A stretch of 64,000 bases of DNA from Promethearchaeati archaeon (GCA_013166775.1 JABLTJ010000009.1:1-64000), one strand, 5' to 3'; positions 39,751 through 46,870 are shown, counted from the stretch's first letter. Notes: generated from the letters alone by a model not told the origin. Numbers and translations: made by a program.

Positions 39751-39775
39751 AAAAGAATTTCTGCTTGAACAGGAA
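39751..39775 (-). repeat. Copy R1 (shortest, distal) of the ncRNA 3' end
   Basis: AAAAGAATTTCTGCTTGAACAGGAA (+ strand). Confidence 0.75.
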
Positions 39776-39792
39776 AGTAATTCAAATAAAAA

Positions 39793-41079
39793 TCACAATT
39801 TACTGTAAATAATATCATAATATTCTCTAATTATGCAAATTGCTACTAGAACTCCCGTTCCAGTTCCTAAAGGACCTAGAAAATCTGCTATAGATGCTAG
39901 AAATCCTATGAAAAAACCTCCTAACCACGCAGCAGTTGGGATATACTGGTTCAGGTATTTCTGAACAATTTTAGGATCCTCTCTAAAACCAGGAATTAAC
40001 ATATCCTTATTAAGAAATTGTTTAGCAACACTCAATGAATCCATTCCAGCAGTAATATACCATATCCGTGAAAAAATACCACAAAATAGTATCATCATTA
40101 TAATATAGCCTACAACAAGAGAGGGTTTCTGGACAATTTTCTCAGGACCGTAAGGAGGGAAAAAAATACCAAAGAAGCCTCTCGGAGAAGAACCAGATAT
40201 TAAAGTAGATATGAAACCTAAAGTAGCAAATAATATTGAAGACAAAATTACTGGAACATAAAAAGTATACAAACTTCTTATAGGATAACGAGTGGGAATG
40301 TCATCTTTTTTTGATTGAGCAGGAATCTCTATTTTTATTGAAATAAAGTAAATAACTATAGCAAAAACGACGAAAAGTAATAGGAAATCTACAAAATCAT
40401 ACGTTTTATATGGATTATAAAAGGGCGTTAGTAAGTCTCCTCTACCTATTCCTTGAAAGAATGCTAAGATACTTCCTTCATACCACATAAATCCACTTAA
40501 TGTTTCTTGATGCAAACTTAACATTCCTTTAAAAATATTGTAACAAACACTGGCAAGTATGAATAGACTAGTTCCGGAACCCAAACCGTAACCCCTCTGG
40601 AGTAGTTCATCCATCAAGATTATCACAAACCCAGCAGCTAGTAATTGCACAAGGATAATCAATTTACTAATTATTGAGATACCCTCTCCATAAATACCAC
40701 TGAAAGAGAATACTAAAGCAAAAGCTATAGTTAATACTATTGCTAGTACTTTAGTACCAATAGCATAGAGCTTTCTATCCTCCTTCTTAGTGAAGTCTAC
40801 TTTGATTAATCTTAAACCAATTAGAATCTGAAAAATAACTATAGAGAGAACAATCGGGAGAATACCAAACTCAGCAAGACTACCTAGCCTAGAGGCAGAG
40901 ATCACTCGGAATAAAGATAGGGGATCATCTAGATAATATATACTTCCGGGAAATCCAAATAAAGGTATGCTTAAGAGAGCAAAATAAATACAAAGAATCC
41001 CAAAAGTCCAAGCTAATTTACTCCTCATTATACTTGGTTTTGATTCTTTTGTTTTCGATATTCCAGTTCTCAGATTCAA
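39793..41079 (-). CDS. secY: SecY/Sec61-alpha paralog outside the ribosomal protein operon
   Basis: GSLAEFGILPIV, MDELLQRGYGLGSGTSLFI, YPI, IPGFRED, LGTGTGVL. Confidence 0.85.
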   Translation of the reverse strand: MNLRTGISKTKESKPSIMRSKLAWTFGILCIYFALLSIPLFGFPGSIYYLDDPLSLFRVISASRLGSLAEFGILPIVLSIVIFQILIGLRLIKVDFTKKEDRKLYAIGTKVLAIVLTIAFALVFSFSGIYGEGISIISKLIILVQLLAAGFVIILMDELLQRGYGLGSGTSLFILASVCYNIFKGMLSLHQETLSGFMWYEGSILAFFQGIGRGDLLTPFYNPYKTYDFVDFLLLFVVFAIVIYFISIKIEIPAQSKKDDIPTRYPIRSLYTFYVPVILSSILFATLGFISTLISGSSPRGFFGIFFPPYGPEKIVQKPSLVVGYIIMMILFCGIFSRIWYITAGMDSLSVAKQFLNKDMLIPGFREDPKIVQKYLNQYIPTAAWLGGFFIGFLASIADFLGPLGTGTGVLVAICIIREYYDIIYSKL

Positions 41080-41171
41080 TTATTTCACTAGTCCTAATAG
41101 TCAATAATGTATATGAGTTTTCTTTAAAAGGATTTTCTAACAAACTTTGAATTAAATTCAAGAAGAAAAGA

Positions 41172-41213
41172 AAAAGGATTTCTATTTAAGCAGGAAGGGG
41201 ATTCTGACTCGAT
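41172..41213 (-). repeat. Copy R2 of the ncRNA 3' end
   Basis: AAAAGGATTTCTATTTAAGCAGGAAGGGGATTCTGACTCGAT (+ strand). Confidence 0.85.
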
Positions 41214-41311
41214 TTTTGATTTCTGAATAACATTAATAAGAGTATAGACCTACAGCTAAATAGTTATCAAGTGGTCTAAAGGAAGAATCCTAATGAATTA
41301 GAGGTTAGAAG

Positions 41312-42238
41312 ATGAAAAATAATAACACGATACTTATCACTGTAATGTTGATTTCTTTTATTATTCTCTCAGGTAATTCATTGCACGTGAGTAGTATCAC
41401 TACTTTAGCTCGTCTAACATTGCAAACAGAGCCTGGAGAGCATTTCGACTATGCACTTTACATATCCAAATATCTTGAATCTATAGATATCGAAGTTCAA
41501 ATTCAAGTACAAGAAGAGGGATGGTATGATAATCTATTAACCTTATCTAATGATTCTGATTTAGCAATTCTAGAAATAGAACAAGAACAAGACTATTCTT
41601 ATGGAGACATTCTCGAAATTTACAGTGAAGAAGGTATGTTAGGAAATTTTGGTTGGAGTAGATCAATACCATATTGTAATCAGAGTGAGCAGTTATTAAT
41701 GATGATTAATGAAACAGAAAATGAACAAGATAAATCAGAACTCATTAATGATTGGATGATAATAGTAATGGATAATATACTTCCAGTTTTGCCATTATTT
41801 ATCCCAAGAAATAATCTATCAATAATACTTCTAGTTTTTAATCTTCAAAGACCATTTATTGGAGGAGATAGTAATTATTTGTTTTTATCTGCACCTGATA
41901 AAGAATCATATACGATTGGAGTCGCAATCAGAAAGGCTATATCTTATTGCATAGATAAAGAGGAAATGAATAACATTGTAAATGATTGATCGTATAATCT
42001 AACTCCATATCCAATAATTGATACTAATGGAGACATTGTAGAATCTGAAACAGATTTTGAAATCCAGTACTATAGGGATTTGGAAAAAGCGAAAGAATGG
42101 ATTGCAGCTTGCAGTTATCACACTTGTATTGAAGAGAGTAAGTTTACTAATCTATACGCAATAATAGGACTATTTATGGTAGGAGAGGCTATTTTAAAGA
42201 AGAAAAGAAGAAGGAATAGAAAAGGAATTTCTGCCTGA
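41312..42238 (+). pseudogene. Shortened family-5 SBP homolog with internal TGA
   Basis: After TGA at 41987-41989 the frame continues SYNLTPYPII...YYRDLEKAKEWIAACSY...TM-KKKRRRNRKGISA*; final stop 42236-42238 lies inside repeat R3. Confidence 0.75.
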
Positions 42239-42259
42239 ACAGGAAGGGGATTCTGACTC
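42220..42259 (-). repeat. Copy R3 of the ncRNA 3' end
   Basis: AAAAGGAATTTCTGCCTGAACAGGAAGGGGATTCTGACTC (+ strand). Confidence 0.9.
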
Positions 42260-44829: not shown

Positions 44830-44938
44830 CTAGTATAATAAGTATAAAACATTAATAAAAATGATGATAAAAAAAACTGTGATTTAAAAGTGCATAAATA
44901 TTGATTTAAAAAAGAAGGATTATTGAATGAATATAAAT

Positions 44939-44966
44939 GGAATTTCTGTCTGAACAGGAAGGGGAT
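44939..44966 (-). repeat. Copy R5 of the ncRNA 3' end
   Basis: GGAATTTCTGTCTGAACAGGAAGGGGAT (+ strand). Confidence 0.85.
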
Positions 44967-45219
44967 ACCCTTCATGAAACTTTATTGATCTCTCAACTCA
45001 TGTAGCTAATTCTTTTTTAGGTTTATCATCCATTGATACTAAAACAAAAAGTTGACCATTGGGAAATTCTTCTTATGGGACGAGTATGAATGCTTTTATT
45101 GGATTTTCTTATCTGATACCATAGGAATTTGGAGTTCAATTCATAGTTTAATCTTTTCTAACAAAATGACTTTAAGCGTAATAATTATATAATTCTAATT
45201 TATTTATCATGCAAATTTC

Positions 45220-46050
45220 TTGGTAATAAAAATGATGACAACAACACAAGTATACGATAAATCATCTACTGATATGGTAAAATACAGTGCATTAATATTT
45301 GTCCTAGCACAAGCAGTGAGCTTTGGTATGGCTTTTATAGAATCTGACTATATTGGTCTAGTTGGAGATATAATTTATGCATTAGGATTATTCCTTCTCG
45401 GTACGGCTATACATAAAATTGGCATGTCTTTTCCAATTGCTAGAAGAGATGCGGATACAACAAAACAATGGTTGTATGTGTTCGGAGGTTCATTGCTTGT
45501 AGTTTACATCCCATTTGTAGGGCTTTTGGGTGCTATTGTAGCACTTGTTTCAAGCATTGTATGTTTTCTGAAATTAAATAATTTATTTAAGAAGATTACA
45601 CAATCAGCTCCCCAACATGGACAGTTGGATTCTTGGGTTTTTCCATTATATGCTTTCTATGGACTGATTGCAGGGGTAGCAATTTTCATAGCAGCATTAG
45701 CGATAGTCATCTCCGGATTAATAACTCTAGTATCTCTGTTTATTTTAGCTTTAGTTGTTGGGATTGGCGGAATATTATTGGCTTTAGGAGTAGCTTATGT
45801 TTTATATCAGAATTCTCTGAAACTGGAAAACATAAGACAATCTATCGACTTTTCACAACTTGCCTCTACACCTGCACCAGGTGTTTATGCTCCAGCTACT
45901 ACTCCAACTGTTTATACACCAGCTCAATCTCCAGTTCAAACCATACCACCGGAATCTGGTGAAGAAGCTACAAAATTCTGCTCAAATTGTGGATCTAGTA
46001 TTATTGAATCTGATAAATTCTGTCCGAATTGTGGTGCAACGGTGAACTGA
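45220..46050 (+). CDS. Multi-pass membrane protein with C-terminal double zinc ribbon
   Basis: ~6 TM, P/T linker, FCSNCG...FCPNCG. Confidence 0.8.
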   Translation: MVIKMMTTTQVYDKSSTDMVKYSALIFVLAQAVSFGMAFIESDYIGLVGDIIYALGLFLLGTAIHKIGMSFPIARRDADTTKQWLYVFGGSLLVVYIPFVGLLGAIVALVSSIVCFLKLNNLFKKITQSAPQHGQLDSWVFPLYAFYGLIAGVAIFIAALAIVISGLITLVSLFILALVVGIGGILLALGVAYVLYQNSLKLENIRQSIDFSQLASTPAPGVYAPATTPTVYTPAQSPVQTIPPESGEEATKFCSNCGSSIIESDKFCPNCGATVN

Positions 46051-46063
46051 TCCACAGTAGTAT

Positions 46064-46540
46064 TTATTGCTCTAAAATTTGCCTTGCGAGATTGATTATC
46101 AGTCGACTTTCGTAATCGTATAGATCATAAAAATCTAAAGATCTACAAAACCACATCTTTAGATGATTCTTGGGGATAGGATCGAAGGTGAGTAAAAGAA
46201 ACACTGCTTGGTAAGGGATTAGATGAGTGAGAGAAGGAAGATTATCTCTTAACTCCCATACATTATTAAATTTGTTCAAAGCTTTCCATTTCTCATCTTT
46301 GATGGAATAGAGATTAGCGAGATAAAGGTAAGGAAGAGCGGTTTCAGGATAATCGTTAATCAAATCCTTGAGAATAGTTACAGCAGGAGAGAGATGACCA
46401 GTCTGAATTGAATTAAGGGAAGTGTCAAGTAGAACTTGGTAAACCTCATCGATAGAGTCTGGTTGTTCCTCAACTATTATCCATGTCCTCAACATGATTA
46501 GTTTCGGTACACTGAAAGCGAAAAAAGTATTTAAGCACAA
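46064..46540 (-). CDS. TPR-like helical protein
   Basis: AVTILKDLINDYPETALPYLYLANLY. Confidence 0.6.
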   Translation of the reverse strand: MCLNTFFAFSVPKLIMLRTWIIVEEQPDSIDEVYQVLLDTSLNSIQTGHLSPAVTILKDLINDYPETALPYLYLANLYSIKDEKWKALNKFNNVWELRDNLPSLTHLIPYQAVFLLLTFDPIPKNHLKMWFCRSLDFYDLYDYESRLIINLARQILEQ

Positions 46541-46567
46541 AGAAAAGTTTAGAATAATTCGGATAAG

Positions 46568-46870
46568 AAAAAGGATTTCTGCCTGAACAGGAAGGGGATT
46601 CTGACTCGATGCCTCTGGGGTTTTTTCATCCTTACGGATGATGGTTGGGGGTTCTGGCAGACAGAAGTTGTCTGTAAATCAGACACATCTGATTCTGGGG
46701 ATTCGGGCTCAGGAGGTCTTAACTAAGCCCAATGGGGGTTCAAACCATCTAAAAAGGGGTTCAACCATAGTTCCCGAGATTTACCCTTGGGAAGGGTTGA
46801 AGCATCGGATTCTCTTCCTGTTCAGTTTGCAGTTTCCTCTTAGATAGCCTTTTACTAAATAACCCCAACT
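46568..46870 (-). ncRNA. Unassigned ~300-nt structured ncRNA candidate
   Basis: GC-richer than flanks; closing helix 46583-46594/46814-46825 extended on both sides; five hairpins; BRE-TATA ~25-30 nt upstream; oligo-T at 3' end. Confidence 0.7.

What the first reader, a model, noticed from the sequence alone, without database searches (positions are those of the whole stretch)
39751..46870. Gene-cassette array built at the 3' end of a novel ncRNA
Seen: six same-orientation copies of AAAAGGA(A)TTTCTGCCTGAACAGGAAGGGGATTCTGACTCGATG at 39751, 41172, 42220, 44086, 44939 and 46568. The last is the 3' end of an intact structured RNA candidate. All copies share the RNA-3' boundary but are truncated to different lengths (~25-58 bp) on the RNA-5' side. 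They delimit segments of ~1.4, 1.05, 1.9, 0.85 and 1.6 kb, holding one gene each (two in the last). The genes face both directions, so the repeat is not simply a promoter or terminator. Cargo is almost all envelope-related: SecY, SBP, zincin, Ig-like anchored protein, Zn-ribbon membrane protein. The two most distal copies are the most eroded. Inference: sequential capture of genes at the RNA's 3' end, like tRNA-targeted island accretion or an integron, but at an unknown RNA and with no catalytic integrase in the window. Variable lengths also fit homology-facilitated illegitimate recombination or 5'-truncated reverse-transcribed copies.
Basis: partly seen in the sequence, partly recalled or inferred. 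Interest (0 to 1): 0.92.

Follow-up and report, generated by a model that had tools for sequence, protein, structure and literature searches.

The report
Gene cassettes behind an unknown RNA
In this Heimdall-group Asgard archaeon, gene-sized blocks that differ between species have piled up behind an undescribed, probably circular RNA gene, each followed by a spare copy of the RNA gene's tail; the same layout occurs behind its 16S rRNA gene and a protein gene, so it looks like a general, integrase-free way of collecting genes and not a system dedicated to this RNA.

Summary
Confirmed. The six co-oriented copies occur nowhere else in the genome. The anchor is a real single-copy RNA gene on the minus strand. 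It is not SRP or RNase P and has no Rfam match. It was found in 28/30 genomes of this family and 0/52 others of the class. A covarying bulge-helix-bulge-type stem closes it and predicts a 250-nt circle; this is not shown by reads. Genomes of three other genera have an empty site; at least 11 same-genus genomes carry 1-6 displaced tails with different, reshuffled cargo. The "dedicated integron or integrase" reading is weakly supported. There is no attC, no shared attP arm and no fixed crossover (5' ends vary from 12 to 57 nt), and no tyrosine integrase, reverse transcriptase or Cas1 was found in the genome (89% complete). The same layout sits behind 16S rRNA and hppA here and behind 23S rRNA in other genomes, but behind none of 44 tRNAs. 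Best reading: homology-anchored capture with an illegitimate second joint, then reshuffling by recombination between tails (inferred). This scan noted the RNA and the 23S arrays before on other DNA; I found no paper describing either.

The parts
46565..46870 (-). Undescribed structured ncRNA gene (anchor); precursor about 300 nt, ends approximate
   Evidence: Folding z -4.9; full copies in 23 loci; covariation in 14 of 32 pairs, with C-G to U-G changes that fit the minus strand; no Rfam hit; SRP and RNase P lie elsewhere
46892..46910 (-). BRE/TATA promoter of the RNA
   Evidence: TATA at 46892-46899; conserved in all aligned relatives
46817..46840 (-). 5' arm of the bulge-helix-bulge/loop splicing motif (outer helix, CUGC, AAA bulge, inner helix)
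46568..46591 (-). 3' arm of the motif (inner helix, GCAG, AAA bulge, outer helix) followed by a U-tract; this is the tail that is duplicated
   Evidence: predicted excised circle 46826 to 46577, 250 nt (inference)
46711..46718 (-). Invariant hairpin-loop motif GACCUCCU; its ACCUCCU equals the anti-Shine-Dalgarno end of the host 16S rRNA
   Evidence: invariant in alignment A1; 16S ends compared
46064..46540 (-). Cargo: TPR-like 158-aa protein; with its leading tail it sits distal to SecY in a close relative
45220..46050 (+). Cargo: membrane protein with C-terminal zinc ribbon
44939..44966 (-). Displaced tail copy 1 (21 nt 5' of the GCAG end, 1 mismatch)
44152..44829 (-). Cargo: 225-aa secreted/anchored protein of a family common in these arrays (25-39% identity to homologues in relatives' cassettes)
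   Evidence: no Pfam hit
44086..44143 (-). Displaced tail copy 2 (longest; 46 nt 5' extent)
42477..44030 (+). Cargo: 517-aa secreted M12-like zinc peptidase
   Evidence: weak Reprolysin_5 hit, E 0.02; HExxH motif in the sequence
42218..42259 (-). Displaced tail copy 3 (29 nt 5' extent, no mismatch)
41312..42219 (+). Cargo: short family-5 solute-binding-like lipoprotein/anchored protein, broken by an in-frame TGA at 41987-41989; its natural stop abuts copy 3
   Evidence: 54% identity to an intact 298-aa homologue in L071
41165..41213 (-). Displaced tail copy 4 (32 nt 5' extent, 5 mismatches)
39793..41079 (-). Cargo: second SecY/Sec61-alpha paralogue, 51% identical to the other SecY on contig C1, under purifying selection (dN/dS about 0.15-0.19)
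39747..39783 (-). Displaced tail copy 5 (eroded)
38548..39522 (-). Distal flank: acidic protein with a lone PF07508 recombinase DNA-binding domain, no catalytic domain; found only in this genus
47024..47743 (-). Conserved upstream flank: PAC2-family gene

Best explanation
The locus is an additive gene-capture hot spot behind a conserved RNA gene and works without a dedicated recombinase. SHOWN: each block is a promoter-bearing gene or small gene group in either orientation followed by a 5'-truncated copy of the anchor's 3' end and terminator; number, content and order differ between species; blocks move together with their leading tail; the same layout exists behind unrelated conserved genes. 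INFERRED: (1) Birth: DNA from a relative carrying 'anchor end + cargo' recombines homologously in the conserved anchor; its far end is joined illegitimately within the last 15-60 bases of the recipient's anchor. The incoming tail rebuilds the gene and the old tail is displaced behind the cargo. (2) Spread: tails of 40-70 bp then serve as short homology arms, so blocks are inserted, popped out and reordered by ordinary homologous recombination, which also refreshes tail sequences. (3) Filtering: long duplications are lost, and tails are kept as terminators (sometimes stop codons) for co-oriented cargo. The anchor RNA is probably cut at its splicing motif by the tRNA endonuclease and ligated into a 250-nt circle; my best guess for its role is an anti-Shine-Dalgarno/C-rich antisense regulator or decoy (about 35%).
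For: Empty site (RNA directly followed by Elp3) in 5 genomes of 3 other genera; 1-6 tails with varied cargo in at least 11 genomes of this genus. 5' boundaries 12-57 nt, mean 30, sd 9, and the 20 nt before them share no motif (identity 0.324 vs 0.323 shuffled). Three cargo ORFs end inside a tail; the median stop-to-tail gap is 15 bp; 18 co-oriented and 12 divergent upstream genes. Tail+TPR unit is RNA-proximal here but distal to SecY in G006 (85% over 542 bp). SecY and TPR cassettes have dS 0.84-0.86 vs 0.48-0.55 for core genes (G006); SecY 0.72 vs 0.29-0.61 (G019). The same SecY-tail joint has a near-perfect tail in G006 and an eroded one here. Near-perfect tails adjoin cargo paralogues only 26-54% identical. 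Same layout behind 16S (4 displaced tails), hppA (at least 3 here, 3 in G013), 23S in G013 and in genus g15. The hppA copies carry the allele that is resident in G013/G010, not the resident allele here. None of 44 tRNAs has a displaced end within 15 kb. No PF00589, RVT_1 or Cas1 in this genome. Precedent for the mechanism: PMC5361080.
Against: Half of the boundaries cluster at 27-35 nt, which could mark a preferred cut or crossover site. 40-60 bp is short for efficient homologous recombination, and HFIR is rare in tested bacteria and usually deletes recipient DNA (PMC5361080; own knowledge). The genome is 89% complete. dS rests on two cassette genes and on MAG contigs that may mix strains. No DNA-uptake route was tested.
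Confidence: 0.55

Rival explanations
1. Site-specific recombinase acting in trans, from a visiting virus/plasmid or one of two host-encoded minimal serine recombinases, integrates circles carrying the RNA 3' end, as at Dehalococcoides ssrA; the blocks are integrase-less remnants.
For: Geometry equals tRNA/tmRNA islands (PMC4383910, PMC3146451), where integrase-less tandem islands are known. Two 239/249-aa resolvase-domain proteins with an intact-looking catalytic motif are present here, and PF00239 matches occur in 28/30 family genomes. A lone recombinase-domain gene flanks the array and is restricted to the genus that has arrays. Modal 5' boundary near 29 nt.
Against: No shared attP arm and no fixed boundary. 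Four unrelated anchor sequences would need four specificities. PF00239 is in only 1/11 genomes of genus g15, which has the largest arrays. No integrase remnant was recognised among the cargo. No viral contig carries the 20-nt core. The recombinase-domain gene lies elsewhere in some genomes and is present next to empty sites.
Confidence: 0.22
2. Break-repair insertion with a local target duplication: breaks at the ends of heavily transcribed genes are repaired with foreign DNA and a staggered, recipient-derived duplication of the tail; no donor tail is needed.
For: Tails match each subclade's own RNA allele; anchors are plausibly highly expressed genes; single displaced tails also occur behind some ordinary genes.
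Against: The tail moves with the following cargo (TPR unit); displaced 16S and hppA tails share alleles that differ from the resident one; the cargo pool is shared between species at this locus.
Confidence: 0.13
3. Tandem duplication of [tail + gene] units followed by divergence and gene replacement.
For: 16S array holds four TPR paralogues (41-59% identical) with shared upstream DNA; some cassettes share promoter-side edges.
Against: The six genes here are unrelated; 5' boundaries differ between units; tails are far younger than cargo divergence.
Confidence: 0.07
4. 5'-truncated reverse transcripts of the RNA, with template jumps to mRNAs.
For: Common 3' end and variable 5' end.
Against: No RVT_1 in 5 genomes searched; 12 of 30 upstream genes are in the opposite orientation with a median 105-bp leader; copies are not dispersed.
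Confidence: 0.03

Closest known systems
tRNA/tmRNA-targeted genomic islands and tandem arrays (Islander, PMC4383910); Dehalococcoides ssrA islands (PMC3146451)
   Same: Intact single-copy RNA gene, cargo, displaced 3' fragment in the same orientation, tandem stacking, strain-variable content; integrase-less members exist at ssrA.
   Different: Target is not a tRNA/tmRNA. ssrA repeats are a fixed 20 bp preceded by a conserved 15-bp motif and served by DsiB; here 5' ends vary 12-57 nt, there is no shared arm and no integrase, blocks are mostly single genes, and tRNAs are not used.
Additive flexible islands with small cassettes and partial-tRNA direct repeats in Ca. Actinomarinales (PMC7771536)
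   Same: [quoted passage not shown]
   Different: Bacterial and tRNA-anchored; here an unknown RNA, rRNAs and a protein gene in archaea.
Displacement arrays attributed to homology-facilitated illegitimate recombination: Vibrio T6SS immunity arrays and Rhs C-terminal displacement (PMC5361080)
   Same: Conserved upstream anchor, incoming module displaces older material downstream, no integrase, later exchange by homologous recombination. Closest in proposed mechanism.
   Different: There the anchor is a toxin-gene 5' part and the displaced piece is an immunity gene or toxin tip; here it is a 40-70-bp gene tail with terminator, and cargo is unrelated to the anchor.
Integrons and CALINs, including archaeal ones (PMC9668308)
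   Same: Gene-sized blocks separated by repeats, shuffled order, integrase may be absent.
   Different: No attC boxes, repeats are copies of a host gene end, cargo has both orientations and promoter-sized leaders.
Splicing-endonuclease-processed circular RNAs of archaea: Thermoproteus SRP RNA (PMC4731332), circular pre-rRNAs, tRNA introns
   Same: Termini paired into a bulge-helix-bulge-type motif that predicts excision and ligation.
   Different: Not SRP or RNase P (both present elsewhere), no Rfam match, own promoter, one family only, invariant anti-SD-like loop; circularity not shown here.

Membership tests
tRNA/tmRNA integrase islands | Target is a tRNA or tmRNA gene | tested here: not met
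   ARAGORN finds none on this contig; no Rfam hit
tRNA/tmRNA integrase islands | Restored target plus displaced 3' fragment in the same orientation bounding the cargo | tested here: met
tRNA/tmRNA integrase islands | Integrase gene in the island | tested here: not met
   No PF00589 in G000 or on any array contig among 31 genomes searched; cargo annotation
tRNA/tmRNA integrase islands | Fixed crossover and conserved attP arm | tested here: not met
   Boundaries 12-57 nt; upstream identity equals shuffled
Integron / CALIN | attC with R'' (RYYYAAC) and R' (GTTRRRY) boxes | tested here: not met
   No box within 120 nt around any of the six copies
Integron / CALIN | Mostly co-oriented, promoterless cassettes | tested here: not met
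   18 co-oriented vs 12 divergent genes, with leaders of about 100 bp
Integron / CALIN | IntI and attI | tested here: not met
   No tyrosine recombinase in G000, 89% complete
HFIR/displacement arrays | Conserved homologous anchor on one side | tested here: met
   RNA and PAC2 flank conserved across the genus
HFIR/displacement arrays | Illegitimate, position-variable second joint | tested here: met
   Variable boundaries, ORFs running into tails
HFIR/displacement arrays | Microhomology at the joint and RecA/RadA dependence | not testable with these tools
   Needs donor-recipient pairs or genetics
REP/MITE-like dispersed repeats | Genome-wide copies in both orientations | tested here: not met
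Retroposed copies | Reverse transcriptase and sense-strand, promoterless cargo | tested here: not met
Casposon-like insertion | Cas1-family integrase | tested here: not met
   No Cas1 in G000; terminal inverted repeats not examined separately
EndA-processed circular RNA | Bulge-helix-bulge or relaxed bulge-helix-loop closing the RNA, with covariation | tested here: met
   4-bp helix and two 3-nt bulges in all full copies; strict in genera g2/g3, relaxed outer side in this genus; two endonuclease subunits in the genome
EndA-processed circular RNA | Circular junction observed in RNA reads | not testable with these tools
SRP RNA / RNase P RNA | Match to RF01857 / RF00373 | tested here: not met
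   Both genes found on other contigs

The most novel reading that the evidence does not exclude
Heimdallarchaeia have an undescribed, sequence-independent host capture system (a host recombinase or repair complex that recognises the structured ends of strongly transcribed genes) that builds integron-like cassette arrays behind rRNAs, hppA and a lineage-specific circular RNA that itself carries an anti-Shine-Dalgarno mimic to control translation.
Probability: 0.18. Interest if true: 0.9.

Novelty: new variant of a known kind. Interest (0 to 1): 0.66.

Why it matters
Heimdallarchaeia are among the closest known prokaryotic relatives of eukaryotes, and how they gain and reshuffle accessory genes is an open question. 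The tails give base-precise markers of insertion events, including gain of a second SecY/Sec61-alpha under purifying selection, in genomes where tRNA/integrase island finders see nothing. The locus also flags a family-wide RNA of unknown function with a precise, testable circular junction and an invariant anti-SD-like loop; it is conserved in the two closed family genomes, so it can be tested in enrichment cultures.

Tried and rejected
Rfam scans of the window and of the shortest homologue gave only noise. SRP and RNase P identity rejected. Guide-RNA reading: no complementarity of 10 nt or more to 16S/23S shared by the three genomes; no conserved C/D boxes. No long ORF on the predicted circle (longest stop-free run 63 codons). 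A relaxed ARAGORN run was mostly noise and was redone strictly. Age polarity and a conserved attP arm were tested and not found. The 23S-tail arrays on small G000 contigs are not counted as evidence from this organism, since they match another genus. Literature searches found no paper on the RNA or these arrays; the library lacks most subscription journals.
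Full report
Observation. A 26-nt core matches four times against none expected. A scan of the whole 3.85-Mb assembly finds all six at 7 or fewer mismatches in 33 nt and nothing else below 11. 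The five segments hold a SecY paralogue, a family-5 solute-binding-like gene broken by an in-frame TGA, an M12-like peptidase, a 225-aa anchored protein without Pfam match, and a zinc-ribbon membrane protein plus a TPR-like protein.

The anchor RNA. The gene is on the minus strand with a conserved BRE/TATA and a U-tract; it folds at z -4.9. It has no Rfam match, and SRP and RNase P RNA genes lie on other contigs. A sequence profile finds it in 28 of 30 other genomes of the family, in all five genera, and in none of 52 other genomes of the class (motif search). Two family members are single closed contigs of 3.08 and 3.33 Mb; from memory these fit the two Ca. Heimdallarchaeum genomes of PMC8813620, so the family is probably Heimdallarchaeaceae (inference). 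The RNA ends pair into a 4-bp helix flanked by two 3-nt bulges, with compensatory changes in the helix and the adjoining stem. The motif is strict in two other genera and relaxed on the outer side in this one. Two splicing-endonuclease subunits are encoded. By established archaeal biochemistry (PMC4731332) this predicts a 250-nt circle here, 213-290 nt in relatives. An invariant loop contains ACCUCCU, identical to the 3' end of the host 16S rRNA; AGGAGG occurs upstream of 51 of 2420 genes against 9 in mid-gene controls. An anti-SD regulator or decoy is my best guess, not shown.

Comparison with relatives. In five genomes of three other genera the RNA is followed directly by the Elp3 gene. In this genus the interval ranges from one small gene to more than 16 kb, with 1-6 displaced tails in at least 11 genomes, and some insertions have no detectable tail. 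Tails carry the RNA allele and terminator of their own subclade. Cargo comes from a shared pool: NosD-type beta-helix proteins, zinc-ribbon membrane proteins, the 225-aa family, SecY and others. The tail+TPR unit follows the RNA here but follows SecY in G006 (85% identity over 542 bp). SecY and TPR cassettes are more diverged at silent sites than core genes: dS 0.84-0.86 against 0.48-0.55 for G006, and 0.72 against 0.29-0.61 for G019. These are few genes and MAG contigs, so this is moderate support for exchange. The SecY-tail joint is the same in this genome and G006, yet the tail is eroded here and near-perfect there, as expected if tails are renewed by recombination.

Junction anatomy. Across 28 clear copies the 5' boundary lies 12-57 nt before the end of the GCAG helix (mean 30, sd 9), and the 20 nt before it are no more alike than shuffled sequence. 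Erosion does not follow position in the array. Upstream genes are co-oriented in 18 cases (median 15 bp from stop to tail; three end inside the tail) and divergent in 12 (median 105-bp leader). There are no attC boxes. This fits illegitimate joints trimmed by selection better than att sites or cDNA.

Enzymes. This genome (89% complete) has no PF00589, RVT_1 or Cas1 match; no tyrosine integrase lies on an array contig in the 31 genomes searched. Two stand-alone minimal serine recombinases exist and PF00239 is found in 28 of 30 family genomes, but in only 1 of 11 genomes of genus g15. The recombinase-domain gene at the distal end has no catalytic domain, is restricted to this genus, and also sits beside an empty site.

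The layout is not specific to this RNA. In the same genome the 16S rRNA end has four displaced 5'-truncated copies separating TPR paralogues and an unrelated gene. The hppA end has at least three clear copies; G013 has three as well, and the copies here carry the allele that is resident in G013 and G010 (lead from note e1-5550540, checked). G001 has a displaced 16S tail and G013 displaced 23S tails, and genus g15 of another family has long arrays starting directly behind the intact 23S gene. None of 44 tRNAs has a displaced end within 15 kb. A few ordinary genes show single displaced tails. Unrelated anchor sequences argue against one site-specific enzyme.

Mechanism. Shown: the layout, its variability, the reshuffling, the variable joints and the generality. 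Inferred: capture by homologous recombination in the conserved anchor with an illegitimate second joint inside the recipient's gene end, then insertion, loss and reordering by recombination between tails (0.55). This is the mechanism proposed for Vibrio T6SS immunity arrays and Rhs tips (PMC5361080). A recombinase in trans, as at Dehalococcoides ssrA (PMC3146451), remains the main rival (0.22), mainly because half the boundaries cluster near 29 nt and the tails are short for homologous recombination.

Comparison and novelty. It works like an additive island at an RNA gene (PMC4383910, PMC7771536) and looks like an integron array (PMC9668308), but fails the defining tests of both. I class it as a new variant of additive/displacement arrays, anchored at an RNA that is itself undescribed in the papers I could search. 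Earlier notes of this scan report the same RNA and the 23S arrays in other genomes; they are unchecked AI notes and I counted only what I tested. Their claim that the ring is seen in metatranscriptomes I could not test. Interest 0.66: real, precise and testable in an important lineage, but probably explained by general recombination and not by a new dedicated machine.

Noticed in passing
L114:1-9200 (G000:C35): Array behind the 16S rRNA 3' end: four 5'-truncated tail copies separating four TPR paralogues (41-59% identical) and one unrelated gene; the copies lack a 60-nt insert present in the resident trailer.
   Followed up: partly
L159:2003-11500 (G000:C75:174002-183500): Array behind the membrane pyrophosphatase gene hppA built on copies of its last codons and terminator; also present in G013 (L191).
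   Followed up: yes
L113, L115-L120 (G000:C8, C88, C89, C69, C57, C40, C12): More than 20 copies of a 23S rRNA tail separating small gene blocks. The tail is 79% identical to the resident 23S but 92-97% to genus g15 of another family, so these contigs are probably mis-binned.
   Followed up: partly
L157:3634-4353 and L158:3347-4096: Two stand-alone 239/249-aa serine recombinases (resolvase domain plus short recombinase-like domain); similar-sized PF00239 proteins occur across the family, while many genomes of this genus, including this one, show no tyrosine recombinase (no XerA found).
   Followed up: partly
window 38548-39522: Genus-restricted acidic protein with a lone recombinase DNA-binding domain; a shorter paralogue is on contig C75.
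   Followed up: partly
window 39793-41079: Second SecY/Sec61-alpha, 51% identical to the other copy, under purifying selection in three species.
   Followed up: partly
window 46737-46775 (RNA interior, minus strand): Repeated GAACCCC-type motifs in the RNA are complementary to the GGGUUC of many tRNA T-arms and, with G-U pairs, to a 23S peptidyl-transferase-region segment; not conserved as long duplexes across genomes, may be chance.
   Followed up: partly
G000:C16:2700-8450 and C107:206500-213800: Two further small families of three co-oriented intergenic repeats each, anchor not identified.
   Followed up: no
L033:7551-8500 and L034:2530-3950; window 41214-41330 vs L051: Different cargo genes share the same promoter-side cassette edge and first codons, suggesting cargo swapping behind a reused leader.
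   Followed up: partly
L075, L076, L077, L078: 16S and 23S genes are unlinked and carry insertions (for example in the last 16S helix of G000 and G001; the 23S match spans 4.1 kb in G030).
   Followed up: no
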